DNA of 64,000 bases from NCBI GenBank assembly GCA_964494885.1, contig CAZBTH010000003.1, positions 5,983 to 69,982 on the forward strand, in the 5' to 3' direction. The DNA comes from an uncultured Gammaproteobacteria bacterium. Its GTDB lineage: Bacteria; Patescibacteriota; Microgenomatia; UBA8517. A model generated the notes under the pieces. It made no database searches. It worked only from the letters and a program-made list of their open reading frames with translations, and was not told the origin of the DNA. This document shows, piece by piece, positions 197-62,303 of this stretch. Within the stretch, counting starts at the first letter, position 1; each line of letters starts with the position of its first letter. The translations under genes were made by a program, and so were the position numbers.

Positions 197-216
197 TTTA
201 GCAGTACTTGGGATCA

Positions 217-853: not shown

Positions 854-2632
854 ATGTTTAAAATCTTTAAACGATTCTACTGGTTCATTTGGAAGCACAA
901 GTGGTGGTTCATCCTAGCGCAGCTGGCCACGACTATTGCTATCGTGCTTGAACTCATTACCCCCTATTTCTTTAAACTTTTTGTGGAAACTCTTCAAAGG
1001 AATGACTTGAATCATCTCTATACATTAATTCTGATCTTCATTGGAGTTTTGTTCGGCAGTCTTGTTTTTGACAATCTAAAGTTTTTTCTTGGCGACATTG
1101 TCTCGGTAGACACTGCCATAGACATAAGAACAACTATATTTAAATATATTCAGGAATTGGACTTCTCGTTTCATGCCGGAAAAAGCACTGGTTCTTTGAT
1201 TAGCGCTTTCAAGCGCGGTGACAACGCCTTTTGGGGACTTTACGAGCGCCTAAACCAAAGGATGTGGCAAATTTTTATCGGTTTTTTTGTAATGGGTTAC
1301 TTTTTTCTAAAAATCGATCCACGATTCATACTTATTTTCTTTATTTCTTTCCTCCTAACACTTGTGGCAACAAAATATCTGGCCGGTATGAACATCCGTA
1401 CGCGTGAAGAGTTTAACGAATACGAAGATAAAATATCCGGCATTATCACTGATAATTTGATCAATTACGAAACGGTAAAACTTTTTGCCAAGGAAAACTG
1501 GGAAATTGAACGGCTAAGGTCTACATTTCGTGATTGGAAAAAATTTCTTTGGAGGCATTTTTATACTTATAGGTATATTGACATGAGTGTTGGAAGTTTA
1601 ATCAACCTCTCCATATTCATTGTTTTGGCCTTTTCCCTGAACTTAATTAAGGCCGGTCAAATAGGCATCGGAGATTTTATCCTTGTTGTATCTTACGTAA
1701 ATTTGTTCTTTCCCAAGCTTTTTGATCTGATTTATGGTTTGCGCGAAATCTCAACAAGTTATGCTGACATCAAAAAATACTTTGATTTGCTGGATTACGA
1801 AATAGATGTAAAAGACCCAATAAGCCCTGTAAGCAAAGATCACGTCAACGGCATAATTGAATTTAAAGATGTCTCTTTTACCTACGGCGGGCGAAGCAAA
1901 AATGCGATTAATGGTGTTGATTTGGAGATTAAAAAAGGACAATCTGTGGCTTTGGTTGGTAGAAGCGGCAGTGGTAAAACTACGTTGGCAAAACTTTTAA
2001 TGAGATTCTACGATATCGATTCCGGAGAAATAACAATCGATGGAGTAAATATTAAAGATTTTACAAAAAGTACTCTAAGGGGATTTGTCGGAGTTGTTCC
2101 CCAAGAGCCCATTCTTTTCAATAATACTATCGCCTACAACATTGGCTACGGCTTCGGACAGGGTCGTCGGACAGGGTCGGACCCTGTCAAACAACCCGCC
2201 CGGAAAGGGTCCGACCTTTCAGAAATTAGAGCAGCTTCAAAACTTGCCAATATTGATGACTTTATTGAAAGCCTAAAGAAAAAATACGATACAGAGGTCG
2301 GCGAACGCGGGGTTAAACTTTCCGGAGGCCAAAAGCAGCGCTTGGCCATAGCGCGGATGATATTAAGCGACCCCGATATTGTTGTATTTGATGAGGCTAC
2401 AAGCCATCTTGATAGCGAGAGCGAAAAACTTATTCAGGATGCGTTTTGGAAAGCCAGAAAGGGAAAAACTACCATCATCATCGCCCACCGTTTGTCTACT
2501 ATCATGAGGGCGGACAAAATTGTGGTTATGGAACATGGGCATATTAAAGAAACAGGAACTCACGAGGGATTGGTGAAGAAAAAAGACAGTTTGTATTCCC
2601 ACTTCTGGAATTTACAAATTAAATTGGACTGA
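854..2632 (+). CDS. ABC transporter permease/ATP-binding protein (MsbA-like exporter) with an in-frame palindromic insertion
   Basis: N-terminal TM domain. Walker A GRSGSGKTT, signature LSGGQKQR, Walker B IVVFDEAT, H-loop IIIAHRL. The track start at 827 is TTG; the ATG at 854 (MFKIFKRF) is more likely. Confidence 0.9.
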   Translation: MFKIFKRFYWFIWKHKWWFILAQLATTIAIVLELITPYFFKLFVETLQRNDLNHLYTLILIFIGVLFGSLVFDNLKFFLGDIVSVDTAIDIRTTIFKYIQELDFSFHAGKSTGSLISAFKRGDNAFWGLYERLNQRMWQIFIGFFVMGYFFLKIDPRFILIFFISFLLTLVATKYLAGMNIRTREEFNEYEDKISGIITDNLINYETVKLFAKENWEIERLRSTFRDWKKFLWRHFYTYRYIDMSVGSLINLSIFIVLAFSLNLIKAGQIGIGDFILVVSYVNLFFPKLFDLIYGLREISTSYADIKKYFDLLDYEIDVKDPISPVSKDHVNGIIEFKDVSFTYGGRSKNAINGVDLEIKKGQSVALVGRSGSGKTTLAKLLMRFYDIDSGEITIDGVNIKDFTKSTLRGFVGVVPQEPILFNNTIAYNIGYGFGQGRRTGSDPVKQPARKGSDLSEIRAASKLANIDDFIESLKKKYDTEVGERGVKLSGGQKQRLAIARMILSDPDIVVFDEATSHLDSESEKLIQDAFWKARKGKTTIIIAHRLSTIMRADKIVVMEHGHIKETGTHEGLVKKKDSLYSHFWNLQIKLD

Positions 2633-6448: not shown

Positions 6449-6493
6449 ACTTGAAGTATACCAAAGTCTGAAAGATGTGTTACAGCGCCTTGC

Positions 6494-6511
6494 AAGGTCG
6501 GACCTTTAAAG
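6494..6511. repeat. REP-like palindrome (upstream flank of the RAYT gene)
   Basis: AAGGTCGGACCTTTAAAG, a half-site-plus-core copy of the TTTAAAGGTCGGACCTTTAAAG palindrome. Confidence 0.8.
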
Positions 6512-6527
6512 ATAATATTTAATTAAC

Positions 6528-7217
6528 ATGCCCACAAAAAACTCCATTAAAATTTACGCAGAAAACACTATCTATCATGTTTACAATCGCGGCGTGGAAA
6601 AAAGAGATATCTTTCTAGACGAACAGGATTATAAAGTTTTTCTTGGATACCTAAAAGAATACTTGTCCCCACCCCCAAGTCTTGAAGATAGAATAAAAAA
6701 ATCTTTTACCTTAAAAGGTCGGACCTTTAAAGGTGTATCAAGACAGCCCAATAATTACTGCGAAAAAATTGATCTTTTGGCGTATTGTCTAATGCCCAAT
6801 CATTTTCACTTCATATTAAAACAAAATGATGACAAGAACACTTTGAAGGAATTTATGCGATCCCTACTTACAAGGTATTCAGTATATTTCAATAAAAAAT
6901 ATGAGCGTGTCGGATCGTTATTCCAAGGTAAATATAAAGCGATTATCGTAATGGACGAAGTCTATCTACTCCATCTGTCGAGATATATTCACATAAATCC
7001 TTATGAGATAACCAAAGATCTTGTAAACGCATATTCTTCTTATGCCGAATATTTAGGCATTAGGCACACAGATTGGATAAAACCAAAGCTTATACTTTCC
7101 TATTTTACCAATCAAAAAACGACCCCCGAATTTACAGCAATCAATACTTATAAAAGTTTCGTAGAAAATTATTTAAAAGATAATTCGAACATATTGGAAG
7201 GTCTAAGATTAGAGTAG
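6528..7217 (+). CDS. IS200/IS605-family Y1 (HuH) transposase, REP-associated tyrosine transposase (RAYT)-like
   Basis: YHVYNRGVEKRDIF, HuH motif LMPNHFHFIL, catalytic-Tyr motif RYIHINPY (compare YIYINP in E. coli RAYT). Flanked by REP palindromes and carries one internal copy. Confidence 0.85.
   Translation: MPTKNSIKIYAENTIYHVYNRGVEKRDIFLDEQDYKVFLGYLKEYLSPPPSLEDRIKKSFTLKGRTFKGVSRQPNNYCEKIDLLAYCLMPNHFHFILKQNDDKNTLKEFMRSLLTRYSVYFNKKYERVGSLFQGKYKAIIVMDEVYLLHLSRYIHINPYEITKDLVNAYSSYAEYLGIRHTDWIKPKLILSYFTNQKTTPEFTAINTYKSFVENYLKDNSNILEGLRLE
6711..6735. repeat. REP-like palindrome inserted in frame inside the RAYT gene
   Basis: TTAAAAGGTCGGACCTTTAAAGGTG, translated as LKGRTFKGV. Confidence 0.8.
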
Positions 7218-7241
7218 CTTTAAAGGTCCGACCTTTAAAGC
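7217..7241. repeat. REP-like palindrome (downstream flank of the RAYT gene)
   Basis: GCTTTAAAGGTCCGACCTTTAAAGC, a 25-nt near-perfect palindrome that overlaps the RAYT stop codon. Confidence 0.85.
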
Positions 7242-7799
7242 TTAATCGGTTTCGTATTCAATCACGACCCAAGGAGTTGGTTTATTAAAGCCGCACATTC
7301 TTAAGACATCAATTGAAGCCTCCCTATGTTTACCGTTTTCCACTCTTGAACCCCGAATTGCGATTTCGTCATTCTTAAAAAGGTTTTCATATACCACCCT
7401 ATCATGTATCACCTGCCCTAATCCATATAAATATTGCGGAAGGTTGTCGGTATGTCTTTTCAATTCACTGACATCGTGGGTTTCTGAATATTCTTTGAAT
7501 TTATGTTCAAATTCTCCGTATTCAGGATAGCCTTTAGGCTTAATTGGGTTTTGCTCTCTTAGAAACTTTGCCGACATTAATTCACCCCACGCTTGAGTAT
7601 CAATAACTCCTTGGCTATTTACAACACCCAGCTGATTAAGATACTGATTTAATAGCTGTCTAACACCGGCAGCTGCAGCCGGATCTTCGTGGCTTTTCTC
7701 TACAAGCCATGCCCAAAGCTTATCAATTTCTTCTGCACGCGTTTCCGAAGAACGCCTCTCGAATTGCTCTCCTCCTCTACCGAATCCACCCATATCCAT
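7242..7799 (-). CDS. Hypothetical protein, probably translationally coupled to the upstream UppS gene
   Basis: Its start lies 3 nt after the UppS stop. No recognisable motif. Confidence 0.45.
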   Translation of the reverse strand: MDMGGFGRGGEQFERRSSETRAEEIDKLWAWLVEKSHEDPAAAAGVRQLLNQYLNQLGVVNSQGVIDTQAWGELMSAKFLREQNPIKPKGYPEYGEFEHKFKEYSETHDVSELKRHTDNLPQYLYGLGQVIHDRVVYENLFKNDEIAIRGSRVENGKHREASIDVLRMCGFNKPTPWVVIEYETD

Positions 7800-9839: not shown

Positions 9840-9869
9840 TTGTTCTATTGTTCTAGAACAGTAGAACAA
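9840..9869. promoter_or_regulatory. Operator-like 17-bp inverted repeat between divergent genes
   Basis: TTGTTCTATTGTTCTAG / CTAGAACAGTAGAACAA, one mismatch, centred on CTAG. Confidence 0.5.
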
Positions 9870-11106: not shown

Positions 11107-11163
11107 CCCGCTATTCTAGCAGATTGGCAACAAGTGTTATACTTTCTATTGGTCTCAAAAAAA

Positions 11164-14559: not shown

Positions 14560-14679
14560 AATATTAATTCAAAAATCAAAATTAAAAAATCAAAATTTTG
14601 ACTTCTTACTTTTGAATTGTATCAAGGGCATTATATCAGAATTCAGAGATATCATTGGGAGTCTGATATAATATGAGCC

Positions 14680-17722: not shown

Positions 17723-19009
17723 CTATATCAAGAGCTTTTTATACTTCTCCCCGTCCTTGTATGGCCCTATTATGGCCAAATTCAAGTGATCTTTAACAAA
17801 TATCTTTTTAGCTTCGTTTACGACTTCTTCTTTTGTCACTTTACCGATTCTCTTGTAAAGTTCGTCCGGAGTTAAAACCTCTTTCAAAAACATCACCTGT
17901 TCTGCAAAAAAGTCGCCTGCTGCTTGAGTATCTTCCAAGGAAAGCGCAATATGGCCCTTAAGATATTCTTTTGTTTTTTCCAACTCCTTGGGGGAAATCG
18001 GAAACTTGCCGTCCGCCAGACCGTAGAGTTGATCCAGAATAACTTTAATTGCTTCTTCGCTCTTGCCCGTATCCACACCTGCATAAAACCCTGTATATCC
18101 TACTTCGTTAAATTTATCTCCTGCCGGTTTAACAGCGTATGCCAATCCACGACGTTCCCTGACTTCTATAAACAACCTTGAACTCATAGGCCCTGCCAGT
18201 ATTGTGGAAAGTACACTTTGGGCAAATCGTCCCGAATACCCCCTGCCCTCGCTTAAAAAACCAAGGATTATATGAGCCTGTTCAACCTTTTTGATTTTAA
18301 GTTTAAATTTAGGACTTTTTTGTTCCGCTTTAAAGGTCTGACCTTTAAAGTCACTTATAGTTTTTCCACCTAGTGGGTGGAGAGAAGTAAAATATTTATT
18401 TACTAATTCAAGGGCTTCTTTTTCTGTAATACCGCCAGAAACTGAAACAAACATATTTTCGGGATAGTAATGTCGTCCTCTGTAAAGTTCGAAGTCGCTT
18501 TTAGTTATTCGTTTTACGCTCTTTGCTTCCCCACCTATATCCCACCCCAATGAACTACCTTTAAAAATTAGCCCCTCAAAAACATCGTGAATTTTTACCA
18601 TTGGAGTATCCTCGTACATCGCAAGTTCCTGAATAATCGTCCCTTTTTCGCGTTCTATCTCCTCGGGTTTTAGAAGCGGAGAAAGAACCATGTCACTTAA
18701 TACATCCATTGCGGTTTCGACACTACCTGAACGGGATTTTATATAAAAATTTGTCCAATCCTTACTTGTTGCCGCATTAAACTCTCCTCCTATCGAGTCC
18801 ACCGCCTCACTAATTGCCTTAGCGGAAGGTCTTTTTGCACTACCCTTAAAAACCATGTGTTCTAAGAAGTGGCTGATACCGTTGATTCGTTTGTCCTCAA
18901 ATCTTGACCCGGTTTTGACCCACACAGTTACGGTTACCGACTCCAACCCCGGCATGGGGACAGTTACAACAGTCAAACCGCTTTTTAGTTTATGAAGTTT
19001 GTATTCCAT
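17723..19009 (-). CDS. M16-family zinc peptidase (pitrilysin/insulinase-like) with an in-frame REP insertion
   Basis: Inverted zinc motif HFLEHMVFKGS (HxxEH). The likely start is MEYKLHKL at 19009. Confidence 0.8.
   Translation of the reverse strand: MEYKLHKLKSGLTVVTVPMPGLESVTVTVWVKTGSRFEDKRINGISHFLEHMVFKGSAKRPSAKAISEAVDSIGGEFNAATSKDWTNFYIKSRSGSVETAMDVLSDMVLSPLLKPEEIEREKGTIIQELAMYEDTPMVKIHDVFEGLIFKGSSLGWDIGGEAKSVKRITKSDFELYRGRHYYPENMFVSVSGGITEKEALELVNKYFTSLHPLGGKTISDFKGQTFKAEQKSPKFKLKIKKVEQAHIILGFLSEGRGYSGRFAQSVLSTILAGPMSSRLFIEVRERRGLAYAVKPAGDKFNEVGYTGFYAGVDTGKSEEAIKVILDQLYGLADGKFPISPKELEKTKEYLKGHIALSLEDTQAAGDFFAEQVMFLKEVLTPDELYKRIGKVTKEEVVNEAKKIFVKDHLNLAIIGPYKDGEKYKKLLI
18328..18350. repeat. 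REP-like palindrome inside the M16 peptidase coding sequence
   Basis: CTTTAAAGGTCTGACCTTTAAAG, translated in frame as FKGQTFKA. Confidence 0.85.
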
Positions 19010-19117
19010 GAAGCTAGTATATAGTATATTGTATGTAGTATGTAGGGGGAGCGAAAACCATGAAACTAGGATATAGTACATTGTATATGGGGAAACATAG
19101 GCACAAGGACAAAAGAC

Positions 19118-26195: not shown

Positions 26196-28025
26196 TCACA
26201 TTCGTTCGGGCGCTTGTATCCCAAGAAGTTGAAGGCCATTCTTAAGTATCTGCCCTGTTGCAGCTGTAAGCGTCACTCTGAATGCACTTATACTCTTCCA
26301 CTCTTCTGCTTTTCTACTCTCATCCTCCAAAATTCTAAATTTATTGTAAAAAGTATTATATTTCGAAGCCAAATCATATAAATAGTTACACAAAAGATTG
26401 GGTGAGTAAGTTTTGGCTGCAGTCGCTATTACCTCAGTAAATCGGGATAAAGCTCTTAGTAACGACAATTCTTCTTCAGTTTCCATTTTCCATTTGCCAT
26501 TTATCATTTCATTTGTAGATTTGCTTATTTGCTTATTTGTAGATTTAAGAAGTACGCTGTTGCATCGAGCAACTGTATATTGAAGATATGGGCCCGAGTT
26601 GCCTTCCAAAGACAGGGAACTTTCAAAATCGAACGCAATGTCCCCGCCTATCCCTTGCTTTAAAAATGCATATTTAACGGCTCCAAGGGCAACCTGTTCT
26701 GCAATTTCATCTTCCATATTGTGTGCATCAAGAAGTTTTTTCTTAGCTTCGTCCAAAACCCATTCCCCCCTAATAATTTTTCCGGTTCTTGAACTCATCT
26801 TTCCTTCGGGAAGACGGACCATCCCGTGCCCTATGTGTGTTGTAGCCTCGGCAAGATCCTTTTTGTACATAGATAGGGCTTTAAGGACAACGTCAAAATA
26901 GGCATCAATCTCGTTACCGGTCACGATAATCGATTTGTCATATGGAAAATCTTTGTATTTGGCAACAGCATTGCCGAAATCCTTGGCTTCGTATGTGGGC
27001 AAATTAAGGGCATTTATAAAAACCCTATTATGCAAACCGTATTTTTCTCCAGGAAAAATTACAGCGCCACGCTCACCCTTCTCAAAAATTCCTTTGGCCA
27101 AACCGTCCAAAACCATTCCATAGCCAAATTCTCCGGTTCTGCTTTCCGGATAATAGCCGTCAAACTTCATCCCAACCCTTTTATAAATTGATTCGAAATA
27201 TTCCAAACTCCATGCCCTACCAATTTCATAAATATTTTTGATTTCAGAATAAGAATACTTGCCGTCTTTTTTGATATATTGATCGTAGTTCACCTGTGGA
27301 GATTCGTTGAATTCCGGCAAAACCACTTCCTGTGCAGCCTTGAAAATTAAAAAGTTAAGCTCTTTCATATCTTCTACTGCTTTCGGATCTTCTTCAAAAG
27401 CAGTTGCACCTTTTGCGTATGCTTGTCCAAAATACTCGATTCTTTCTTTTAGAGGCTTTTCGGTAAGGTCTTTAATATCAACTTTGTCCTCTGAAAACTT
27501 AAACATTAAACCCCAAATCGCCTTGGCAGCATGCATGCCAACATCGCCAAAATAATCGGCTCGCCATACGTCTCCGCCAATCGCGCTTTGCAAGCGGCTA
27601 ATCGATTCACCAACCGTATTTGTATATAAGTGGCCTATATGAAACTCTTTGAATGGGTTGGGATCGGTATATTCAACAACTACTTTTTTACCCTTAAGAA
27701 AACCGCTCTTTCCATAACTTTCCCCTTCTTTCTGTATCTTCCCAAGCTCGTTGACAAGGGTCCCCCCTGTCAACCAAAAATTTATAAAACCCGGGCCGGC
27801 GACTTCAATTTTTTCAATAAATTTGGATAATTCGGGAGACTGGGATAGTTTGATTTTGATTTCTTCAGCCAATTCCCTTGGATTTTTGCCCTCGCTTTTT
27901 GCCATGATTAGCGCAATATTGCACGAGTAGTCGCCGAATGTTTCGTTTTCGGGAAATTCCAAGCTGATTTCCTTTGCTTTGGTTACAGCTTCTAAAGCCG
28001 TTAGTATTTTAGTTCTAGTTTCCAT
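26196..28025 (-). CDS. argS: Arginine--tRNA ligase
   Basis: HIGH-class motif region and KMSSRTG (the KMSKS-like motif). C-terminus ...LLGIQAPERM. The likely start is METRTKIL at 28025. Confidence 0.9.
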   Translation of the reverse strand: METRTKILTALEAVTKAKEISLEFPENETFGDYSCNIALIMAKSEGKNPRELAEEIKIKLSQSPELSKFIEKIEVAGPGFINFWLTGGTLVNELGKIQKEGESYGKSGFLKGKKVVVEYTDPNPFKEFHIGHLYTNTVGESISRLQSAIGGDVWRADYFGDVGMHAAKAIWGLMFKFSEDKVDIKDLTEKPLKERIEYFGQAYAKGATAFEEDPKAVEDMKELNFLIFKAAQEVVLPEFNESPQVNYDQYIKKDGKYSYSEIKNIYEIGRAWSLEYFESIYKRVGMKFDGYYPESRTGEFGYGMVLDGLAKGIFEKGERGAVIFPGEKYGLHNRVFINALNLPTYEAKDFGNAVAKYKDFPYDKSIIVTGNEIDAYFDVVLKALSMYKKDLAEATTHIGHGMVRLPEGKMSSRTGKIIRGEWVLDEAKKKLLDAHNMEDEIAEQVALGAVKYAFLKQGIGGDIAFDFESSLSLEGNSGPYLQYTVARCNSVLLKSTNKQISKSTNEMINGKWKMETEEELSLLRALSRFTEVIATAAKTYSPNLLCNYLYDLASKYNTFYNKFRILEDESRKAEEWKSISAFRVTLTAATGQILKNGLQLLGIQAPERM

Positions 28026-33625: not shown

Positions 33626-33707
33626 ATAAAAATGTAAAAATACAAATAAAAATTTAAAATCTTTGATGTTTTATATGTCATTTTGATTTTTAATATTTGA
33701 TTTTTTA
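33626..33707. repeat. AT-rich 80-nt element splitting comEC (copy A)
   Basis: ATAAAAATGTAAAA...AAAATTTAAAAT...TATGTCATTTTGATTTTTAATATTTGATTTTTTATTT closely matches copy B at 34789-34866. Confidence 0.75.
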
Positions 33708-34772
33708 TTTTGCAAACAGTTTCACTGTTTGCGCAAACCACCACAGCATAGGATAACCCAAATAAAGTATAAGCTTTCCCAAGCTAGGCATAATTAATCC
33801 GATAATCCCCCCAACGCTCCCCAAAATCATAATATAGGGAATTGTCCAAAGAACTAGGGCGTTGATCAAGGGAGACCATATATTAAACTGTCCAAATGTA
33901 ACAAACAGTATCGGTGCTACCCCAATTTGAGCCGCTAAAGACGTGGAAAGTCCTTCTCTAAGAAACTTGGGTATCTTAAGCAATTTAGAATGAATTCTTT
34001 TTTCAAAAAGTACAAGCGAGGCCGTAGAAACAAAAGACAGTATAAAACCGATATCGATAATCCAATTGGGATTATAAATAAGCATTACTCCTGCGGTAAG
34101 GAACAAAACACGCATGGTTGACACGATCCGACCTATTCCCTGCCCCAGAAAAATGACTGACGACATAATGGCCGCCCGCACGAGTGGTGCATCAAAACCC
34201 GACACAAAGAGATACAAAATAATACCTAACATAGCAAACACTATCGCTTTTTTTCTGGTTAAATACAATGTAAGAATTCCCATCAAAAAAGATACAACGA
34301 AAGTTACGTTGGTTCCTGATGCAACCACAACATGGGCCACTCCCGCAAGTTTTGTCTGATTATAAAAATCCGGTGAAAGCGCCCCTTTGGCCCCGATTAC
34401 GATTCCCGACAAAAGTCCCCCTTCCGGTTCGGGTAAAACTTTCTGATAAAAAGAAATTATGTTGTTTCGAAATAATGACGTATAACTTTTTGACGGATTA
34501 ATTTTCATTAATTTTGGGTCCTCTAATTTTCCACTGCCAACGGTTCCCTCAACAACAATTTTGTCGCCGTATGAAATTTCCGGGAAAAGCGGAAGATAGG
34601 TTCTAAGTTCCGCAACTTTTAAATATTGAGAGGTGGAATAACGGATGGGGTCGGAAAAAACTGTTGTAGTTATACGGACACGGTCACCATTGTGGTAATT
34701 TGGTAAAGTAAAATAATATCTTACCCCAATCAGCACTATCAGAAAAATAAAAATTGTCAAATTCCGTTTCAT
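33705..34772 (-). CDS. comEC: ComEC N-terminal part: polytopic membrane Competence domain
   Basis: LAGVAHVVVASGTNVTFVVSF is the ComEC Competence-domain motif. Many TM helices. Confidence 0.75.
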   Translation of the reverse strand: MKRNLTIFIFLIVLIGVRYYFTLPNYHNGDRVRITTTVFSDPIRYSTSQYLKVAELRTYLPLFPEISYGDKIVVEGTVGSGKLEDPKLMKINPSKSYTSLFRNNIISFYQKVLPEPEGGLLSGIVIGAKGALSPDFYNQTKLAGVAHVVVASGTNVTFVVSFLMGILTLYLTRKKAIVFAMLGIILYLFVSGFDAPLVRAAIMSSVIFLGQGIGRIVSTMRVLFLTAGVMLIYNPNWIIDIGFILSFVSTASLVLFEKRIHSKLLKIPKFLREGLSTSLAAQIGVAPILFVTFGQFNIWSPLINALVLWTIPYIMILGSVGGIIGLIMPSLGKLILYLGYPMLWWFAQTVKLFAK

Positions 34773-34788
34773 AATTCAAAAATAAAAA

Positions 34789-34866
34789 ATAAAAATGTAA
34801 AATGGCAATGGAAAATTTAAAATTTCGATATGTCATTTTGATATTTAATATTTGATATTTTATTTA
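34789..34866. repeat. AT-rich 80-nt element (copy B) in the comEA-comEC intergenic region
   Basis: See copy A; about 85% identical over roughly 80 nt. Confidence 0.75.
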
Positions 34867-35493
34867 ATATACACTTACCAAATCTTTTATCTTGTTATAC
34901 GCAGAACTCTTCAAAACACCTTTTGACAGCAATTCTTCAACGTTTGAGTACGGTCTGTGTTCAATTATGTTTTGGCCATAAACTTGGCCAATTCCAGGCA
35001 ATGAGTCGAGCTCCTGAAGGGTCGCTGTATTGATATTGACAAGGGGGCCCCTTGTCACCCCTAAAACGGGTTGATCTACTTTGATATCATCATAAGTTTT
35101 AGCAGTCAAGTTGTCTGACTGCTGATTGGCGTTGGGTATATACACCTTTTGTCCGTCTGTTAATTTTGCCGCGCGGTTTAGATATTTATCCGTCCAAACT
35201 CTGTCCGCGTTAACCGAAAACCCGCCGGAAACAACCAAAAGATCCTCAACGCGACTACCACCGGAAAGTTTATAAACACCCGGTTTAACTACTTCTCCAG
35301 CAATTTCCACTGTTAAGTCCTGACGAATGTCGAAACCTTCGTTATTATCAAGAATTTCAACCTTTGTTGATGGAGACGCCAGTCCACTTTTAAAAAAGAA
35401 AATCCCCGCGCCGGTAGCGATCAACCCCCCGAGAAGTATTAAAAGAGGATAACGAAAACGGTTTAACATTTCATCTATATTGAAGCTGTGCAT
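34864..35493 (-). CDS. comEA: Competence protein ComEA (SLBB plus helix-hairpin-helix DNA-binding)
   Basis: HhH motif INTATLQELDSLPGIGQVYGQNIIEHR. N-terminal TM anchor. Confidence 0.8.
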   Translation of the reverse strand: MHSFNIDEMLNRFRYPLLILLGGLIATGAGIFFFKSGLASPSTKVEILDNNEGFDIRQDLTVEIAGEVVKPGVYKLSGGSRVEDLLVVSGGFSVNADRVWTDKYLNRAAKLTDGQKVYIPNANQQSDNLTAKTYDDIKVDQPVLGVTRGPLVNINTATLQELDSLPGIGQVYGQNIIEHRPYSNVEELLSKGVLKSSAYNKIKDLVSVY

Positions 35494-35567
35494 TACTAAA
35501 CTATACTACGAAATTAATTACTTTTCCCGGAACCACACTTCGTCAAAACTTCGCGGGGCAAGTAATA

Positions 35568-38126
35568 TCAACCTATTACAAAATTAATTACCTTGCCGGA
35601 TATAAAAATTGTCTTTTTAATGGTTTGCCCTTCCAACCACTTGGCCACATTAGCGTCAGATTTGGCCAATTTGGTTACCTCAGATTCTTGCTTCGAGATT
35701 CCAGATTCCAGCTTCAAAGTAGCCCTTAACTTGCCATTGACTTGAACCACAACCGTGACCTTATTCTGAACAATAAGTTTAGGGTCGTAGGAAGGCCAAG
35801 GAGCCTTGTGAATGCTAAAAGGCATACCTAAGACCTCTACCCATATTTCCTCCATCATATGAGGCGCAAAAGGGGCCAGGAGGAGGGCCAAAGCACTTAA
35901 GACCTCAGAAGTCTGATGACTGATATTTGATGTCTGAATCGAAGTTTGATTTTCGATCTTCGTTTTTCCGACTTCGTTTCTGATTTCAGACTTCTGACTT
36001 CCGGCTTCTGTTAGTGTATTCACCAGTTCCATAAGAGATGAAATTGCCGTATTGAATTTATAGTTTTCAATATCCTCCCCCACTTTTTTGATAGTTTGGT
36101 GGAGCTTTGATAAAACTTCACTGTTGACTGCTGATTGTTGACTGCTGATTGTTGACTGTTGGAACAGACGCCAAACACGTCCCAAAAATCTGGCTATTCC
36201 TTCAACTCCTGTTATACTCCACGGTTTCATTACGTCAAACGGTCCCATAAACATTTCATAAACACGAAGCGTATCAGCTCCAAATTTGGGAATAATATCG
36301 TCAGGTGTAATCACATTTCCCCATCTTTTGCTCATTTTGCGGGAATCAGGTCCAAGTATCCAACCAGGAGCACGGAGCTTTAAAAATGGCTCGTCTCCCA
36401 CAGATTTATCGATTAGACCTTGGTCAAATAAGAACTTCCAGAAAAATCTGGCAAAAAGTAAATGTTGGACAACATGTCCCCCGCCAACGTAGTCGTCAAC
36501 AGGAATAATATTTTCTTTTGAAGCAAACTCTTTAATATTCTTTGGATCGCAAAATCTCATAAAATACCAAGAGGAGTCAACATATGTATCCATTGTATCA
36601 ACCTCTCGTTTGGCCGGCTTTCCACAAATAGGACAGACTACATCTTTCTGGAAAGTTTTAGATCTGGCAATCGGACTTTCACCATGTGGTTGGAAATCGA
36701 CATCGGTAGGAAGAACAACTGGTAGATTTTTTTCTTCTACGGGAAACCAGCCAGCCATACCTTTAAAGGATGATCCTTTAAAGGTGTCGGATGCACAATG
36801 CTCGCAATAGATCATGGGGATAGGACAACCCCAATATCTTTGGCGGGAAATTAACCAATCACGGATATGGTAAGAGACCGTTCTCTTGCCAATTCCTTTA
36901 TCCTCAAACCAGTCCATAGTCTTTTGCAATCCCTCTTCGAAACTCAAGCCGTTTAGAAATTCAGAATTGATAAATTTTCCTTCCATCCCATGTTCAATAA
37001 CCTGTTCTTTTGTTTCTATTTCTGAAGTATCGCCGTCTTTTCCTACAATGACCCTAACAATAGGAAGGTCGTATTTTTTGGCAAACTCAAAATCATTCAA
37101 GTCATGTCCCGGACAACCCTGAACAGCTCCTGTCCCCACACCGGCAACTACAAAATCAGAAACCCAAACCGGAACTTCTTTGTTGTTTATAGGATTAATT
37201 GCATACAAACCGGTAAACACCCCTGTTTTTGTCTTATTGGCCACATTTGTCACATTAGATGAATTAGAAAGATGCTCTTTGATGTATTTATCTACACTTT
37301 CTTGATTCTCTTTAGGGATCTTAAGTTGTTTTAATAGTTTGTGTTCTGGAGCTAAAACCAGAAAAGTCATGCCGAAATTTACAGGAGCAGTTGTAAAAAC
37401 TTCTATTTCCTCGTCGGAATCAACAACCTTATATCGAATATTTATCCCTTCTTTCCTCCCAATCCAATTAACCTGCTGTCTTTTAACTTCGTCTTCCCAA
37501 TCAATTTTTTCAAGACCCGAGATTAAACGGTCAGCATAGGCAGTGATTTTAAAGAACCACTGATCCATATCTTTTTGTATTACTTCTGTATCACACCGTT
37601 CACATTTACCCTCAACCACTTGTTCATTGGCCAAAACTGTTTCATCTTTAGGACACCAATTGACAGGAGACTTCTTTTTGTAAGCCAAACCAGCTTTGAA
37701 AAGCTGAATAAATATCCACTGAGTCCATTTATAAAATTCGGGAGAACTTGTGTCAATTTCCTTATCCCAATCATAAGACATGCCGCTTATTTCCAATTGG
37801 CGTTTGAATGTTTTTATATTCTCGTGAGTGGATTTATCAGGGTGAATCCCGGTTTTAATAGCATAATTTTCCGCGGGAAGGCCAAATGCATCCCACCCCA
37901 TCGGATGAAGAACGGAATGACCCCTCATCCTAAAATATCGGGACAGGATATCTGTGCCAACATAGCCCTCAAGATGACCAACATGCATCGAGGCGCCGGA
38001 AGGATAAGGGAACATGTCCAAGATATACTTTTTCTTTTTTCCGGCTTCCGGAGTTTTGTAAACACCCTCCTTCTCCCATTTTTTTTGCCATTTTGGTTCG
38101 ACAACTGAATGGTCGTATTTATCCAT
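35568..38126 (-). CDS. leuS: Leucine--tRNA ligase with several in-frame repeat insertions
   Basis: HMGHLEGY (HIGH) and KMSKRWGN (KMSKS). Conserved editing and anticodon-binding regions. Confidence 0.95.
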   Translation of the reverse strand: MDKYDHSVVEPKWQKKWEKEGVYKTPEAGKKKKYILDMFPYPSGASMHVGHLEGYVGTDILSRYFRMRGHSVLHPMGWDAFGLPAENYAIKTGIHPDKSTHENIKTFKRQLEISGMSYDWDKEIDTSSPEFYKWTQWIFIQLFKAGLAYKKKSPVNWCPKDETVLANEQVVEGKCERCDTEVIQKDMDQWFFKITAYADRLISGLEKIDWEDEVKRQQVNWIGRKEGINIRYKVVDSDEEIEVFTTAPVNFGMTFLVLAPEHKLLKQLKIPKENQESVDKYIKEHLSNSSNVTNVANKTKTGVFTGLYAINPINNKEVPVWVSDFVVAGVGTGAVQGCPGHDLNDFEFAKKYDLPIVRVIVGKDGDTSEIETKEQVIEHGMEGKFINSEFLNGLSFEEGLQKTMDWFEDKGIGKRTVSYHIRDWLISRQRYWGCPIPMIYCEHCASDTFKGSSFKGMAGWFPVEEKNLPVVLPTDVDFQPHGESPIARSKTFQKDVVCPICGKPAKREVDTMDTYVDSSWYFMRFCDPKNIKEFASKENIIPVDDYVGGGHVVQHLLFARFFWKFLFDQGLIDKSVGDEPFLKLRAPGWILGPDSRKMSKRWGNVITPDDIIPKFGADTLRVYEMFMGPFDVMKPWSITGVEGIARFLGRVWRLFQQSTISSQQSAVNSEVLSKLHQTIKKVGEDIENYKFNTAISSLMELVNTLTEAGSQKSEIRNEVGKTKIENQTSIQTSNISHQTSEVLSALALLLAPFAPHMMEEIWVEVLGMPFSIHKAPWPSYDPKLIVQNKVTVVVQVNGKLRATLKLESGISKQESEVTKLAKSDANVAKWLEGQTIKKTIFISGKVINFVIG
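36760..36784. repeat. REP-like palindrome inside the LeuS coding sequence
   Basis: CCTTTAAAGGAT-G-ATCCTTTAAAGG is a perfect 12+1+12 palindrome, translated TFKGSSFKG. It lies in an insertion relative to canonical LeuS. Confidence 0.85.
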
Positions 38127-45547: not shown

Positions 45548-46087
45548 GATATAATTAATACTAAGCTTAATACATACGCATTTGCAAGCATCTAAAAAGT
45601 TAAACCTCACTCCCCTGCCTCCGGTAAATATAATAGCCAAAAGTTCGGTCTAAAAGGAGGGTAATTTTTCCTAGCACTCATTTTCTCCATCTGCTAATCA
45701 CAGCCGTATCGCCGAAGTATAAAAATATAATATAAAATTATTTAAGCAGAGGCTGCAATCGAACATTTTTATAGAGACGTTCTTCTAAAACGATTACATT
45801 CTCCGCAAAAAAATTTGGCAGTAAGTAATAAACGCAGTTTTCCGCAAACTAAACTCCATGCCTGTTTTTTTGGAAGAAAACAGGCATTTATAAACATTAT
45901 AAACGTTATAAAATTTATAAATATTATATTTTCGTGCGGAAAAGACGTGCGTTAATTATACTACAAGTACTGTGAAAGTAAATTCTAATATTTAAAAGGG
46001 ATGATATGGTAAATACCCTTGACAGGCTTGAATAATATTTTAATAATAGTCTAATTAGTATAATTTGTATAATCTAGCCTTAATAAC

Positions 46088-49600: not shown

Positions 49601-51497
49601 TTTTGATATGGGAGGAAGAACAGCTGGCACTGTCACTCCAAAAGTTGGAACGGCAGCTCACGATGCAATTAGTGCTAATGGTTCATACGATCTTACCTTC
49701 GACGCTACAGCTAATAATACAGATATAATTTTTACTCCTGACATTAATTTTAACGGTTATATTGATAATGTTTATATCTATCGAAGAGCCGTCAATACTG
49801 TTATTTCTGATACTGGAAGAGTGGGTATTGGACGAGCAACACCTGCATACTTTCTTGATGTTTTGGCTCCGGAAAATGGAGTCATTGCCAGATTCTTAAG
49901 TGACAACACCACTGGTTGTACTTTGGCAACTGGAGGTACTATTTCTTGTACTTCAGATGTCCGGCTAAAACAGGATATTGAAGACACTTCTTTTGGCCTA
50001 GATACTATTATGAACTTAAGACCAGTAGATTTTAACTGGAAAAGCGGAGCTTCAATTTATAAAAACCTTGGTTTTATTGCCCAAGAAGTTGAAACGCTTA
50101 TCCCTAATCTGGTTAACGTTGATCAAGATAATGGTTACAAACAACTCAATACAACAGGGCTTATTCCTGTCCTCACAAAAGCTATACAAGAACAGCAAAT
50201 ACAAATTTCTACCCTCTCCACCCAACTCGCGGATTTAAAGATCAATTCTACAGGCGATATCACTTTATCCGGTAATCCAGTTTCCGGTTATACTGTCTCT
50301 ACTCCTATCGGCATTACTCAAAAAATTGGTGCTTTTGCCAATTTAGTTGCTGCAAATATACACGCAGGGGCGCTGATTACTGATGAACTGCTTACTGATA
50401 AACTGAATGCGGTTGTAGCAACAGTTCAAAAGCTGACAACTAATAGTTTAGCGGTTAAACTGATATCCCCTCTTCCTGATCAAACTGACGTTACAGTAAA
50501 ACTCGGAGGTGAGGCAACACCATCAGGAAAACTGGCGATTCAAAACTCACAAGGTGATGAAGTGGCTGCTATCGATTCGTCTGGCAACGCAACATTCTCC
50601 GGTACAGTAAACAGTAACCAGTTAACAGTAAACAGTGAAGCAACTATTTCCGGAACTCTTTTTGCAGACAACATAAAATCAAAAAGTCTGGATGAAATTC
50701 AAGCACTTTTGACAAAAGTCCAGACTGACCAGGGTCTTCTAAAGGACGCTCAAAGCTGGAACACCAACACCGCAACAAACTCAGCAACTCTCTCAGGTCT
50801 TTCCGCCAGTGATCTATATATAACAAACCAGGCCGCAATTAATTCACTGTCTATTTCTAAAACTTTAGCTGTCGGTTCTGATCTTGTATTTAGTTCCTCA
50901 GTCAACAGTGAACAGTCAACAGTGAACAGCATTGACACTTTGTCTGCTCCACTTCGGATTCAGAGTTTGACAATGGCACCAGTTGAGCTTATGGCCGGAC
51001 TTGTAACAATAGATACACACGGAAATGTTACGATCGGCGGAGACTTGAATGTAGCAGGCAGAATACACTCCTCCGGTCTAACCTTGCAAGGAACAAACTT
51101 ACAAGATGACAAAATTCTTAATCTCCAAAGTCAAACCGGAATCCTGGTCGCCTCGGTGGACGCAAGTGGATCGGCCGAATTCGAATCAGTTTATACTCCC
51201 CAACTTATTATTGCGGGGGCTGACGCAACAACCCCAGGTGCTGTGGTAAACGGAGCAACAACAACAAACTCAACAATCGGACATACGATAATACCGGCAG
51301 GAACAAATGAGATAACAATTATCAATCCCAAGGTTACCGACTATACCCTAATCTATGTGACACCAACCTCGTCAACCCAAAATAATGTATTATATGTAAA
51401 GAGCAAACAAAAAGGACAATTCACAGTTGGATTTGCAATCCCGATTGATACAGACGTCTCATTCAATTGGTGGATAGTCCAGGTACAAAAATGGTAA
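46614..51497 (+). CDS. Giant (1627 aa) membrane-anchored surface fibre protein with an internal S74 endosialidase-chaperone-like domain
   Basis: N-terminal SAM-like half-domain (SKIIKSYQNEIA...SLKKFLDWAKTKGLI), TM helix, Thr/Gly/Ser/Ala-rich beta-rich repeats. SDVRLKQDIEDTSFGLDTIMNLRPVDFNWKSGASIYKNLGFIAQEVETLIPNLV...GYKQLNTTGLIPVLTKAIQEQ matches the S74 intramolecular chaperone domain. Confidence 0.7.
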   Translation: MDKLPKLTSKIIKSYQNEIARSDSAATAKRKIVSLKKFLDWAKTKGLIDINLEETIITQAKNETKFPAKKALNIRFQNLYKRYRNIPGTSYLNIAILVILSSTLGLGIYNQFFKNATNPFAATSLVRPNRYLSFQGRLTNQFLNPVTAVTSVVFTLYDAASSGTTLWTGTCNVTPDTDGVFSTLLGSDCGSEISSSVFSDNASVWLGVKVAADAEATPRIQIATVAYALNSETLQGYPASSSATINTVPVVNNSGQIVLAVSSPKIQSTTGTFAIEGQAITIQTPSASNGNVTIAPDGTGQLNLTFTGASPGSGTGMVNATDANLTSGSLYYGSVASDASGYNLLQLQSGSTLSNKFVVDSAGNASASGDLTLAGVSSIQTTTFSPLTIGGSTTGNIVLSPSNNIAGGNVSPGVTNVTDLGTASLLFRNIYATTLYQGVNQVCDAGGGVAGCAGANYWRLANNVLSPIQVAYDLTIGGSATGSAFQVYAATGNVASAGVGQFGSTSVSTYSRFGSATTEHSLSSASDLLVNGKLELNDTLFLDGGTIANSAGTGTITFSPTPTTASNALSASNWLIENTANVGQAALMVNQVKGGDIFTASQSGIPVFTVAHLAGTVANGITLTGAATGSGPTITATGSDTNIALSIDSKGTGALNLNNTATGDILLAGGVGATGCTLTNSTGALSCAGNISTTATSGTQGWWQRVAGNLSPINLNDTISATTSAATAMTITQTGAFDAFLVQDAAGDTTPFVIDQSGNVGIGDTTPSYLLDVAGTLNSTGSTTLGTGASSVNVIGSTTTPGTLTLHGATTLDDTFTVSGNNLTSLGGNLTLSGTTITASSLATLTTSSAVAWGGATELTFTADNATIYGSNAASGNLILDGTSNATKTSSYVIIQPNGGNVGIGTSAPTATLEILADVDTPSGNAIEVQAVESANLNDQDADDITFTNATTCWTYGAGWARSGGTALHSALVGTENLSCNLTDGYIDNNQIYRMTFDMGGRTAGTVTPKVGTAAHDAISANGSYDLTFDATANNTDIIFTPDINFNGYIDNVYIYRRAVNTVISDTGRVGIGRATPAYFLDVLAPENGVIARFLSDNTTGCTLATGGTISCTSDVRLKQDIEDTSFGLDTIMNLRPVDFNWKSGASIYKNLGFIAQEVETLIPNLVNVDQDNGYKQLNTTGLIPVLTKAIQEQQIQISTLSTQLADLKINSTGDITLSGNPVSGYTVSTPIGITQKIGAFANLVAANIHAGALITDELLTDKLNAVVATVQKLTTNSLAVKLISPLPDQTDVTVKLGGEATPSGKLAIQNSQGDEVAAIDSSGNATFSGTVNSNQLTVNSEATISGTLFADNIKSKSLDEIQALLTKVQTDQGLLKDAQSWNTNTATNSATLSGLSASDLYITNQAAINSLSISKTLAVGSDLVFSSSVNSEQSTVNSIDTLSAPLRIQSLTMAPVELMAGLVTIDTHGNVTIGGDLNVAGRIHSSGLTLQGTNLQDDKILNLQSQTGILVASVDASGSAEFESVYTPQLIIAGADATTPGAVVNGATTTNSTIGHTIIPAGTNEITIINPKVTDYTLIYVTPTSSTQNNVLYVKSKQKGQFTVGFAIPIDTDVSFNWWIVQVQKW

Positions 51498-62244: not shown

Positions 62245-62303
62245 CCCTACAGCATATTGACAAGTCGTGGACTAAACACTATAATAATTATAGTGTTTGG
62301 ACT

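What the first reader, a model, noticed from the sequence alone, without database searches (positions are those of the whole stretch)
36760..36784. Perfect 12+1+12 palindrome inside leuS adding TFKGSSFKG next to the editing/zinc region
LeuS reads ...CEHCASDTFKGSSFKGMAGWFPVEEKNLPVVLP, whereas canonical LeuS proceeds from the Cys cluster directly to the ...VPVPE..LPV.LP segment. An essential aminoacyl-tRNA synthetase therefore carries a mobile palindrome and still has an open frame.
Basis: partly seen in the sequence, partly recalled or inferred. Interest (0 to 1): 0.6.

Follow-up and report, generated by a model that had tools for sequence, protein, structure and literature searches.

The report
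Translated transposase-linked hairpin repeat inside leuS
The perfect palindrome inside the essential leucyl-tRNA synthetase gene is one copy of a small family of DNA hairpin repeats that brackets a transposase gene 30 kb away and also sits, in frame and translated, inside other housekeeping genes of this ultra-small (CPR) bacterium.

Summary
Window 36759-36785 is a perfect 13+1+13 palindrome inside leuS, and it lies within a 14-residue insert (ASDTFKGSSFKGMA) absent from T. thermophilus LeuRS.

It is not unique. The motif CTTWAAAGG-N5-CCTTTAAAG occurs five times in the window against 0.4 expected. Three copies lie just before, inside and just after a 229-aa Y1/HUH transposase gene (6528-7217; Pfam IS200-like, weak match to NCBI's REP-associated tyrosine transposase model). 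One lies in an M16 peptidase gene and one in leuS. Three homologous transposase loci from other Microgenomates show the same three-copy layout.

Distant LeuRS relatives carry different palindromes at the same codon, with compensatory changes that alter the amino acids. In one such genome the leuS copy is 24/27 identical to a copy in argS.

The closest relative (about 90% identical LeuRS) lacks both the insert and the motif in 22.6 kb.

Best reading (confidence about 0.65): a REP-like hairpin element of a RAYT/IS200-type system, tolerated in frame in a surface loop of the LeuRS zinc knuckle. Transposition itself is inferred, not shown. This is a new variant of a known kind, and the closest precedent is the Rickettsia palindromic elements.

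The parts
36759..36785 (.). Perfect 13+1+13 palindrome in leuS (ACCTTTAAAGGAT G ATCCTTTAAAGGT), translated on the minus strand as TFKGSSFKG. It is a member of palindrome family A, with centre GGATCATCC.
   Evidence: Covariance model R1 scores it 39.8 bits, E 3e-8. DNA hairpin -11.4 kcal/mol, z -4.05.
36753..36794 (-). The 14-codon insert ASDTFKGSSFKGMA (LeuRS aa 445-458) relative to canonical bacterial LeuRS. It comes directly after the first CxxC of the zinc knuckle.
   Evidence: Alignment to T. thermophilus LeuRS 1H3N shows a single 14-residue gap between C442 and G443. 96 of 121 Microgenomates LeuRS have no insert here. The AlphaFold2 model shows coil with pLDDT about 70-79.
35568..38126 (-). 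leuS, bacterial-type leucyl-tRNA synthetase, the host gene with an intact reading frame.
   Evidence: ORF. (homologues carry Pfam PF00133, PF09334, PF13603, PF08264). (E 1.7e-206 to 1H3N).
6528..7217 (+). Y1/HUH single-strand DNA transposase gene (RAYT / IS200-like, 229 aa; HUH motif in 'CLMPNHFHFIL'). It is the only copy in the window.
   Evidence: Pfam PF01797 Y1_Tnp, E 7e-9. NCBIfam NF047646 'REP-associated tyrosine transposase' scores 45.6 bits, below its cut-off of 80. At least 7935 homologues, nearly all 224-231 aa (a few up to 261), among Microgenomates/Patescibacteria. Single copy by tblastn.
6487..6513 (.). Family-A palindrome (imperfect: GCCTTGCAAGGTC G GACCTTTAAAGAT) in the divergent intergenic region, ending 14 nt before the transposase start codon.
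   Evidence: R1 scores 35.6 bits. The same position is occupied in L210, L211 and L212.
6708..6734 (+). Family-A palindrome inside the transposase gene (ACCTTAAAAGGTC G GACCTTTAAAGGT), encoding TLKGRTFKG.
   Evidence: The peptide TL[KQ]G-x-[TSAP]FKG is conserved in 120 homologues. Residues flanking the centre co-vary as reverse-complementary codons, 116/119.
7216..7242 (.). Perfect 13+1+13 family-A palindrome (AGCTTTAAAGGTC C GACCTTTAAAGCT). It overlaps the transposase stop codon and fills the gap to the convergent gene 7242-7799.
   Evidence: R1 scores 41.7 bits. The same position is occupied in L210, L211 and L212.
18326..18352 (-). Family-A palindrome (11+1+11 perfect core CTTTAAAGGTC T GACCTTTAAAG) in frame in an M16 peptidase gene (17723-19081), encoding DFKGQTFKA.
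   Evidence: R1 scores 35.8 bits. The 54%-identical orthologue in L215 is 6-8 residues shorter at this spot.
2161..2222 (+). Two shorter palindromes sharing the family core GGTCNGACC (2172-2186, 2205-2219). They lie in frame within a roughly 16-residue insert in the nucleotide-binding domain of an ABC exporter (ORF 821-2629). These are probable diverged relatives of family A.
   Evidence: Alignment to ABCB4 shows the gap. R1 gives only 12-13 bits, so membership is tentative.

Best explanation
The leuS palindrome is an in-frame, translated copy of a REP-like DNA hairpin repeat. The repeat belongs to a Y1/HUH (RAYT / IS200-type) single-strand transposase system found widely in Microgenomates (CPR bacteria).

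Shown:
- A 27-nt palindrome family (consensus ACCTTTAAAGGTC-N-GACCTTTAAAGGT) brackets the transposase gene on both sides, occurs once inside it, and is scattered in other genes and in intergenic DNA.
- Copies within one genome resemble each other more than copies at the same leuS site in different genomes.
- The stem is kept by compensatory changes, even where that changes the encoded amino acids.
- The leuS copy lies in a loop after the first CxxC of the LeuRS zinc knuckle that is absent from canonical LeuRS and from the closest relative.

Inferred:
- On single-stranded DNA the palindrome folds into a hairpin that the Y1 enzyme recognises, cuts and rejoins. This is how REPs and IS200/IS605 ends are handled, and it spreads or replaces copies.
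- In these gene-dense small genomes, copies survive inside genes only in the frames without stops. The frame used by all the coding copies reads NCC-TTT-AAA-GGN, giving x-F-K-G. They also survive only in loops that tolerate 9-14 extra residues.
- The enzyme stays functional, and the peptide TFKGSSFKG is a passenger of the DNA element.
For: Family and chance:
- 5 matches in the window against 0.40 expected.
- Core GGTCNGACC: 6 against 0.38 expected.
- 30 near-palindromes against about 7 in simulations; 9 against 0.1 with a GG-N5-CC centre.

Transposase:
- PF01797, E 7e-9. The best NCBIfam hit is the RAYT model.
- The palindromes sit just before the start codon, inside the gene and over the stop codon.
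- The same three-copy layout occurs at homologous loci L210 (73% identity), L211 (76%) and L212 (62%).

DNA level rather than protein level:
- Palindromicity exceeds synonymous-recoding nulls in all 8 insert-bearing leuS genes (P 0.0005-0.04).
- 15/16 Ser/Thr/Ala codons in the arms are NCC against a 19% background (P about 3e-10).
- Across 21 copies, 87% of cells pair, 8/13 pairs change on both sides, and there are 27 double-change cells (0/500 shuffles).
- Within the transposase family the residue pair around the centre is G-T/S/P/A or D-V/I, so 116/119 pairs are encodable by reverse-complementary codons (shuffle mean 96, maximum 104).

Dispersal and turnover:
- The closest LeuRS (P0001) lacks the insert. 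Its 22.6-kb neighbourhood has no family hit.
- The nearest neighbour of nearly every insert-bearing LeuRS is insert-free.
- In L215 the leuS copy is 24/27 identical to a copy in argS of the same genome, but only 17/27 identical to the window's leuS copy. That 22-kb locus has 5 core motifs against 0.05 expected.
- L210 has a copy with the same GGATCATCC centre in an unrelated 908-aa ORF.

Tolerance:
- The 14-residue gap against 1H3N lies in the zinc-knuckle loop.
- The model shows coil at moderate confidence while the rest of the enzyme is well predicted.
Against: - No transposition event is seen directly.
- Query and closest relative differ by a diverged patch. Nucleotide identity is 58-60% in the 20 codons after the insert against 84% overall, and CEHC is replaced by CEDD. 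This looks like recombination or local rapid change rather than a clean insertion.
- In argS (L215) the palindrome occupies a stretch with no length difference from orthologues. In M16 the difference is only 6-8 residues for a 9-codon element. 'Insertion' is therefore not the whole story.
- The leuS site is occupied in several distant lineages.
- The leuS copy's centre (GGATCATCC) differs from the GGTCNGACC centre of the transposase-linked copies in the same window.
- The transposase scores below NCBI's RAYT cut-off (45.6 against 80) and has no sequence match in the PDB.
- No conserved GTAG/CGTC-type tetranucleotide is visible next to the copies. E. coli TnpA-REP needs such a tag and an imperfect stem (PMC3333891).
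- Only 64 kb of this genome was available, so the genome-wide copy number is unknown.
Confidence: 0.65

Rival explanations
1. Selected cis-element. The hairpins are functional sites, kept by selection as part of a domesticated Y1-protein system. They could be binding sites for the single-copy Y1 protein, or mRNA/DNA hairpins that affect expression, pausing or replication of housekeeping genes such as leuS and argS. On this view they are not merely tolerated selfish DNA. This reading overlaps with the best explanation on origin and differs on why the stem persists.
For: - The stem is maintained by compensatory changes over LeuRS divergence of 60-70% identity, at the cost of amino-acid changes (F-K to S-G).
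- The internal palindrome is conserved across 120 transposase homologues and dictates their sequence.
- The transposase appears single-copy per locus, and one homologue sits in an identical context in more than 20 contigs. Published RAYTs behave like housekeeping genes (PMC5581495).
Against: - The leuS copy is dispensable: the closest relative and 96/121 homologues lack it.
- Decayed versions exist (P0032, P0060).
- No promoter- or terminator-like context.
- No Rfam or other functional evidence was sought or found, and no common position relative to gene features.
Confidence: 0.2
2. Self-maintaining quasi-palindrome without a transposase. The stem arose once in a permissive loop. It is kept symmetrical by intrastrand template switching during replication (quasi-palindrome correction), which copies a mutation in one arm to the other.
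For: - Compensatory double changes, and perfect stems in some lineages alongside 1-2 mismatches in others, are what template switching produces. The mechanism itself is from my own knowledge of quasi-palindrome mutagenesis and was not retrieved here.
- Other CPR LeuRS carry unrelated palindromes at the same site (L124/L204, L152).
Against: - It cannot explain why the same 23-27-nt sequence family appears in unrelated genes and intergenic DNA and brackets a transposase gene in four genomes.
- It cannot explain why copies within a genome are more alike than orthologous copies.
- It may still contribute to stem maintenance.
Confidence: 0.07
3. Protein-level motif. A duplicated beta-hairpin-like peptide x-F-K-G-x-x-F-K-G is selected in LeuRS. 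The DNA palindrome is a by-product, because NCC-TTT-AAA-GGN is self-complementary.
For: - The peptide repeat recurs in distant LeuRS (SFKGQAFKG, TLKGQTLKG).
- It is conserved in the transposase family.
- TTT and AAA are the preferred Phe and Lys codons.
Against: - Synonymous-recoding nulls are exceeded in all 8 genes, and there is a strong NCC bias.
- LeuRS relatives keep the stem while changing the peptide to SQGESFG or SQGGSLG.
- Intergenic copies exist that are not translated.
- The model shows coil and no hairpin.
Confidence: 0.03
4. Not translated. The hairpin marks a segment that ribosomes bypass or that is removed from the mRNA, so the protein lacks the insert.
For: Hairpins are part of known translational bypass elements (T4 gene 60 and mitochondrial byps; from my own knowledge). 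GGA and GGT codons flank the centre.
Against: - Every copy in a gene is a multiple of three, free of stops and in one frame.
- There is no stop codon after a take-off site.
- Insert lengths vary freely among relatives.
Confidence: 0.02

Closest known systems
REP sequences with RAYT / TnpA-REP transposases ('REPtrons'; Nunvar 2010 PMC2817692; Ton-Hoang 2012 PMC3333891; Bertels & Rainey 2011 PMC3116915)
   Same: - Short (20-40 nt) palindromes that can fold as single-strand hairpins.
- A Y1/HUH transposase gene bracketed by the palindromes.
- The transposase is apparently single-copy.
- Genome-specific sequence variants of the repeat.
- Stem kept by paired changes.
   Different: - Many copies lie inside protein-coding genes and are translated, whereas REPs are by definition extragenic.
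- One copy is a conserved part of the transposase gene itself.
- Stems are AT-rich and often perfect.
- No GTAG/CGTC tag.
- The protein falls below NCBI's RAYT cut-off and carries an extra roughly 35-residue segment.
- The host is a CPR bacterium. No paper linking RAYT/REP to CPR turned up in the full-text searches.
Rickettsia palindromic elements (RPEs; reviewed in PMC10969869)
   Same: - Palindromic repeats inserted in frame into unrelated, often essential, genes of a small gene-dense genome.
- They add a peptide segment without destroying the protein.
   Different: - RPEs are about 100-150 bp, against 27 nt here.
- No linked transposase is cited for RPEs in the review passage read (PMC10969869), whereas here a Y1 transposase gene carries the same palindrome at both ends.
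- Different phylum, and no sequence similarity was tested or expected.
IS200/IS605 insertion sequences and their transposase-less derivatives (PATEs)
   Same: A compact unit of about 756 nt (6487-7242) made of a left hairpin, tnpA (Y1) and a right hairpin. Solo hairpin-bearing derivatives occur elsewhere in the genome.
   Different: - No second copy of the whole unit in the window.
- One homologue always sits in the same genomic context.
- Dispersed copies are single 27-nt hairpins rather than paired left and right ends.
- Target tetranucleotide unknown.
[quoted passage not shown]
   Same: Coding sequences with dyad symmetry that are spread among genes and translated.
   Different: PARCELs are tandem arrays of 25-residue domains in surface and membrane proteins of unknown function. 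They are not single hairpins in housekeeping enzymes, and no Y1 transposase is tied to them.

Membership tests
REP / RAYT (REPtron) system | Transposase of the Y1/HUH class (HUH motif and catalytic Tyr) | tested here: met
   Pfam PF01797 Y1_Tnp, E 7.2e-9, 36.2 bits against cut-off 23. H-F-H is visible in 'CLMPNHFHFIL', and 'FQGKY...RYIHINP' follows downstream (sequence). The assignment of the catalytic Tyr rests on my own knowledge of the family.
REP / RAYT (REPtron) system | Protein reaches the curated RAYT model (NCBIfam NF047646 equivalog) | tested here: not met
   The model is the best and only NCBIfam hit, but it scores 45.6 bits against a cut-off of 80 and covers residues 80-169 only. 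No PDB sequence match.
REP / RAYT (REPtron) system | Transposase gene flanked on both sides by the repeated palindromes | tested here: met
   Window 6487-6513 and 7216-7242. The same holds in L210, L211 and L212.
REP / RAYT (REPtron) system | Palindromes highly repeated across the genome (typically >100 copies) | tested here: inconclusive
   5 copies per 64 kb here (0.4 expected). About 6 copies, or 5 core motifs, per 22 kb in L215 (0.05 expected). Whole genomes were not available.
REP / RAYT (REPtron) system | Repeats are extragenic | tested here: not met
   3 of the 5 window copies lie in ORFs, in frame (leuS, M16, the transposase itself). Copies in argS and a 908-aa ORF occur elsewhere.
REP / RAYT (REPtron) system | Conserved tetranucleotide (GTAG or CGTC) at the foot of an imperfect stem, required by E. 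coli TnpA-REP (PMC3333891, PMC3733652) | tested here: not met
   Flanks of the copies share no conserved tetranucleotide; 'GGTAG' follows only some copies. Several stems are perfect.
REP / RAYT (REPtron) system | Enzyme binds and cleaves the single-stranded hairpin | not testable with these tools
   Needs biochemistry.
IS200/IS605 insertion sequence | Whole element (hairpin-tnpA-hairpin) present in several identical copies at different sites | tested here: inconclusive
   One copy in 64 kb. Homologue P0201 is in the same context in 20 or more contigs. Context differs between species.
Rickettsia palindromic elements | In-frame insertion of a palindromic repeat into unrelated ORFs | tested here: met
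   leuS has a 14-residue gap against 1H3N. The ABC exporter has a roughly 16-residue gap against ABCB4. M16 is 6-8 residues longer than its orthologue.
Rickettsia palindromic elements | Element of about 100-150 bp belonging to the RPE sequence families of Rickettsia | tested here: not met
   The element is 27 nt and the host is a Microgenomates/Woesebacteria-like CPR bacterium. It is an analogue, not a member.
Bacterial leucyl-tRNA synthetase (host gene) | Full-length class I LeuRS with editing domain and Zn-knuckle cysteines | tested here: met
   E 1.7e-206 to T. thermophilus LeuRS. CEHC and CPIC align with C439/C442 and the second Cys pair. Pfam domains of homologues. AlphaFold2 mean pLDDT 84.

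The most novel reading that the evidence does not exclude
The hairpins are more than tolerated junk. Together with a conserved, single-copy Y1 protein they would form a domesticated system, widespread in Microgenomates, whose DNA (or RNA) stems are kept intact by selection. The stems would be kept even at the cost of rewriting amino acids in essential enzymes (LeuRS, ArgRS) and in the Y1 protein itself. On this reading a nucleic-acid element dictates short peptide segments across the proteome of these minimal bacteria.
Probability: 0.25. Interest if true: 0.85.

Novelty: new variant of a known kind. Interest (0 to 1): 0.62.

Why it matters
REP/RAYT systems are known as extragenic repeats, mostly in Proteobacteria. 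In-frame palindromic parasites of genes are known mainly from Rickettsia, and there no transposase has been tied to them.

This case joins the two. A hairpin repeat with its own Y1 transposase lives largely inside coding sequence in a CPR bacterium, where intergenic space is scarce, and is translated as part of essential enzymes.

If the pattern holds genome-wide it would matter in three ways:
- It would explain some of the many unexplained lineage-specific inserts in CPR proteins.
- It would provide a natural map of loops in aminoacyl-tRNA synthetases that tolerate insertions.
- It would offer a tractable system, a 27-nt hairpin and a 229-aa enzyme, for testing how REP-type elements move and why their stems persist.

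The covariation of amino acids in the transposase caused by a DNA palindrome (G with T/S/A/P, D with V/I) is also a caution for anyone reading protein covariation as structural contact.

Tried and rejected
(1) My first search for other copies used the full 25-mer with up to 3 mismatches. It found none, because the copies differ in the five central bases. For a while this led me to treat the palindrome as unique and to favour a template-switching or selected-hairpin explanation. The window-wide palindrome scan corrected this.

Only 10 of 120 hits were LeuRS, and none was of the short FKG type. A first attempt was rejected for having too few specified bases.

(4) Longer inserts at the same LeuRS site in other CPR groups (L001, L006, L034, L041, L044, L056, L076) were tested as possible relatives. 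They are not palindromic beyond the recoding null and served as negative controls.

(5) A weak tblastn hit of the transposase at 27150-27515 is just argS.

(6) The PDB sequence search for the transposase found nothing.

(7) The M16 alignment to 3HDI was too ambiguous to call an insertion. The L215 orthologue was more useful.

(8) Protein-level repeat, translational bypass and template-switch-only explanations were considered and down-weighted (see rivals).

(9) Not used: the search of protein representatives, fold search, Rfam.
Full report
**1. The observation**

Window 36759-36785 reads ACCTTTAAAGGAT-G-ATCCTTTAAAGGT. This is a perfect 13+1+13 inverted repeat, one base pair longer per arm than reported. 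The 10-mer CCTTTAAAGG is its own reverse complement, so the stretch is also a direct repeat spaced 15 nt apart.

It lies in an 852-codon ORF on the minus strand (35568-38126). That ORF is a bacterial leucyl-tRNA synthetase, with E 1.7e-206 to T. thermophilus LeuRS. Its best homologue is a Candidatus Woesebacteria LeuRS, which places the window in the Microgenomates (CPR/Patescibacteria).

The palindrome is read as T-F-K-G-S-S-F-K-G (aa 448-456). Against PDB 1H3N the alignment has a single 14-residue gap. ASDTFKGSSFKGMA sits between Cys442 and Gly443, directly after the first CxxC of the zinc knuckle. Of 121 related LeuRS, 96 have no insert there.

**2. First reading: a conserved hairpin at one site**

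The closest relative (P0001, 88% identical overall, 91% outside the region) has CEDDGWQPVPDTD and no insert.

More distant LeuRS (60-69% identical) do carry inserts there with similar peptides: SFKGQAFKG, TLKGQTLKG, TLKGETLQG, SQGESFG and SQGGSLG. I fetched their DNA and found that each is palindromic at the same centre codon, but with a different sequence. Examples:
- GGA/TCC becomes GGC/GCC or GGT/ACC.
- TTT/AAA becomes TCC/GGA, which turns F and K into S and G.

Several measures show the symmetry is a DNA property:
- It exceeds what the peptides require in all eight genes, judged against synonymous-recoding nulls (P 0.0005-0.04).
- 15 of 16 Ser/Thr/Ala codons in the arms are NCC, against a 19% background.
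- Longer inserts at the same site in other CPR groups show no such excess.

So the DNA symmetry is the conserved feature, not the peptide. At that point I considered a selected hairpin or a self-correcting quasi-palindrome.

**3. The turn: it is one of a family, and the family has a transposase**

My 3-mismatch search had found no other copy. A scan for all perfect palindromes found 14 in the window, against about 2.5 in simulations. Among them were AGCTTTAAAGGTC-C-GACCTTTAAAGCT at 7216-7242 and CTTTAAAGGTC-T-GACCTTTAAAG at 18328-18350.

The pattern YTTWAARGG-N5-CCYTTWAAR has five matches against 0.40 expected:
- 6489-6511
- 6710-6732
- 7218-7240
- 18328-18350
- the leuS copy

The first three lie just before, inside and just after ORF 6528-7217. 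That 229-aa protein matches Pfam Y1_Tnp 'Transposase IS200 like' (E 7e-9). Its only NCBIfam hit is 'REP-associated tyrosine transposase', below that model's cut-off (45.6 against 80 bits). It carries the HUH motif (CLMPNHFHFIL). The fourth copy is in frame in an M16 peptidase gene (DFKGQTFKA).

A palindrome-bracketed Y1 transposase gene is the signature of REP/RAYT 'REPtrons' and of IS200-type elements (PMC3333891, PMC2817692).

**4. Does the association hold elsewhere?**

The protein family is very large in Patescibacteria: at least 7935 hits, nearly all 224-231 aa.

I fetched three homologous loci, at 73, 76 and 62% identity. All three have a family palindrome shortly upstream of the start, one inside the gene and one over or just after the stop.

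The internal copy encodes a conserved peptide, F-TL[KQ]G-x-[TSAP]FKG. Across 119 homologues the two residues flanking the palindrome centre are G-T (51), G-S (36), G-P (11), G-A (5), D-V (7) and D-I (4). Of these pairs, 116/119 can be encoded by reverse-complementary codons, against a mean of 96 and a maximum of 104 in shuffles. The DNA palindrome is therefore conserved across the family and dictates the protein sequence at that spot.

On 21 copies from five genomes:
- 87% of cells pair.
- 8 of 13 pairs show changes on both sides.
- There are 27 double-change cells, reached by 0 of 500 shuffles.
- Pair 12-16 is UA 13, AU 5 and CG 3, with none unpaired.

**5. Evidence for dispersal and turnover**

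(a) The nearest neighbour of nearly every insert-bearing LeuRS is insert-free.

(b) A covariance model of the family finds no copy in 22.6 kb around leuS of the closest relative.

(c) In 22 kb around the leuS of P0041 (L215) there is a second strong copy inside argS. It is 24/27 identical to that genome's leuS copy, whereas the two orthologous leuS copies share only 17/27. The same locus has another argS copy and three intergenic ones. The core GGTCNGACC occurs 5 times there against 0.05 expected.

(d) L210 carries a copy with the same GGATCATCC centre as the window's leuS copy, in an unrelated 908-aa ORF (ATLQGSSFQGV).

(e) The centre GGCCAGGCC of the P0018 leuS copy is the one found in the L212 transposase.

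Copies thus track the genome they are in. This is expected of a family that spreads or is homogenised within genomes.

**6. What does not fit a simple insertion**

- The window's leuS and its closest relative differ by a diverged patch. Nucleotide identity is 58-60% in the 20 codons after the insert against 84% overall, and CEHC is replaced by CEDD. There is no clean 'empty site'.
- In argS of L215 the palindrome occupies a variable linker with no length difference from orthologues.
- In M16 the excess is 6-8 residues for a 9-codon element.
- The leuS site is occupied in several distant lineages.
- No conserved tetranucleotide flanks the copies and several stems are perfect. E. coli TnpA-REP needs a GTAG tag and an imperfect stem (PMC3333891).

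How copies arrive and how the stem is maintained (re-insertion or replacement by the enzyme, arm-to-arm template switching, or selection) remain open.

**7. Tolerance by the enzyme**

An AlphaFold2 model built on 64 homologues has mean pLDDT 84. The insert (aa 445-458) is modelled as coil at pLDDT about 70-79, between a short helix after the CxxC and the conserved GW-PV strand.

That these four cysteines bind zinc in T. thermophilus LeuRS is from my own knowledge of that structure. Only the alignment of the cysteines was tested.

**8. Verdict**

The palindrome is real. It is an in-frame, translated member of a REP-like hairpin family tied to a Y1 (RAYT/IS200-type) transposase.

It works like a REP/RAYT system and, in its effect on genes, like the Rickettsia palindromic elements (PMC10969869). 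It fails several membership criteria of classical REPs: extragenic location, the tetranucleotide tag and the curated RAYT score.

Full-text searches found no description of such a system in CPR bacteria. I rate it a new variant of a known kind, with interest 0.62.

Noticed in passing
window 2161-2197, 10692-10712, 27750-27774, 35037-35057: A second palindrome family, TGACA(A)GGG-N1-5-CCC(T)TGTCA. All four copies lie inside ORFs and in frame: an ABC exporter (RTGSDPV), ORF 10318-11115 (LTGSHPVI), argS (LTGGTLVN) and comEA (VTRGPLVN). The argS copy does not look like a length insertion. No linked gene was identified.
   Followed up: partly
window 35905-36010 (leuS aa ~713-740): A second insert in leuS of about 26 residues (SEIRNEVGKTKIENQTSIQTSNISHQ) in the anticodon-binding domain. 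It is encoded by a long imperfect inverted repeat with 12-nt perfect arms, TCAGAAGTCTGA/TCAGACTTCTGA, 69 nt apart. It is shared with the closest relative P0001 and absent from P0002-P0007. AlphaFold2 pLDDT is below 50 there. It resembles RPEs in size.
   Followed up: partly
L124 6259-6291 and L204 2364-2396; L152 1936-2306: Other CPR LeuRS carry unrelated palindromes at the very same loop. L124 and L204 have AATTTTAAATTTAAAATTTAAAATT (peptide KKFKILNLKFKIE). L152 has four copies of AACCAAACCCCGGGGTTTGGTT: two in the loop, read in two different frames (QPNPGVW and DQTPGFG), and two further downstream in the gene. The loop looks like a general landing or tolerance site for palindromic repeats.
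   Followed up: partly
window 821-2629 (ABC exporter), insert at ~2161-2222: The nucleotide-binding domain has an insert of about 16 residues (rtgsdpvkqparkgs) between the 'NIxYG' and 'EI..A.K.AN' segments, relative to human ABCB4. The insert coincides with two short palindromes that share the core GGTCNGACC.
   Followed up: partly
window 51081-51107: A weak covariance-model hit (17.4 bits, E 0.06): AACCTTGCAAGGAACAAACTTACAAGA, encoding TLQGTNLQD. It is possibly a decayed family-A copy.
   Followed up: no
L083 10001-12589 (P0001) and many homologues: A large subset of Microgenomates LeuRS, including the closest relative, has C-E-D-D in place of the first CxxC, so one zinc-ligand cysteine is replaced by Asp. 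Insert-bearing forms have GW[FY]PV after the loop and insert-free forms mostly GW[QN]PV. One exception is P0071, which has CENC-GWFPVEEKN and looks like the window's sequence with the insert removed.
   Followed up: no
window 33705-38126; L081-L089, L083, L215: The gene order leuS - comEA (SLBB/HHH_3) - comEC (Competence) is conserved across all Microgenomates loci fetched.
   Followed up: no
window 216-246, 9840-9869, 14573-14618, 45886-45922, 62274-62298: Further strong palindromes or near-palindromes unrelated to families A and B, for example AAACACTATAAT-A-ATTATAGTGTTT (12+1+12) at 62274-62298 inside an ORF. Overall there are 30 near-palindromes against about 7 expected in simulated sequence.
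   Followed up: no
window 6528-7217 and 120 homologues (P0134-P0253): Relative to the Pfam and NCBIfam models, the Y1 protein matches only from residue 80 on. The N-terminal part carries a conserved segment of about 35 residues (…LSPPP…F-TLQG-x-TFKG-VPRQPKNY…) that contains the palindrome-encoded peptide. Its role in the protein is unknown.
   Followed up: partly
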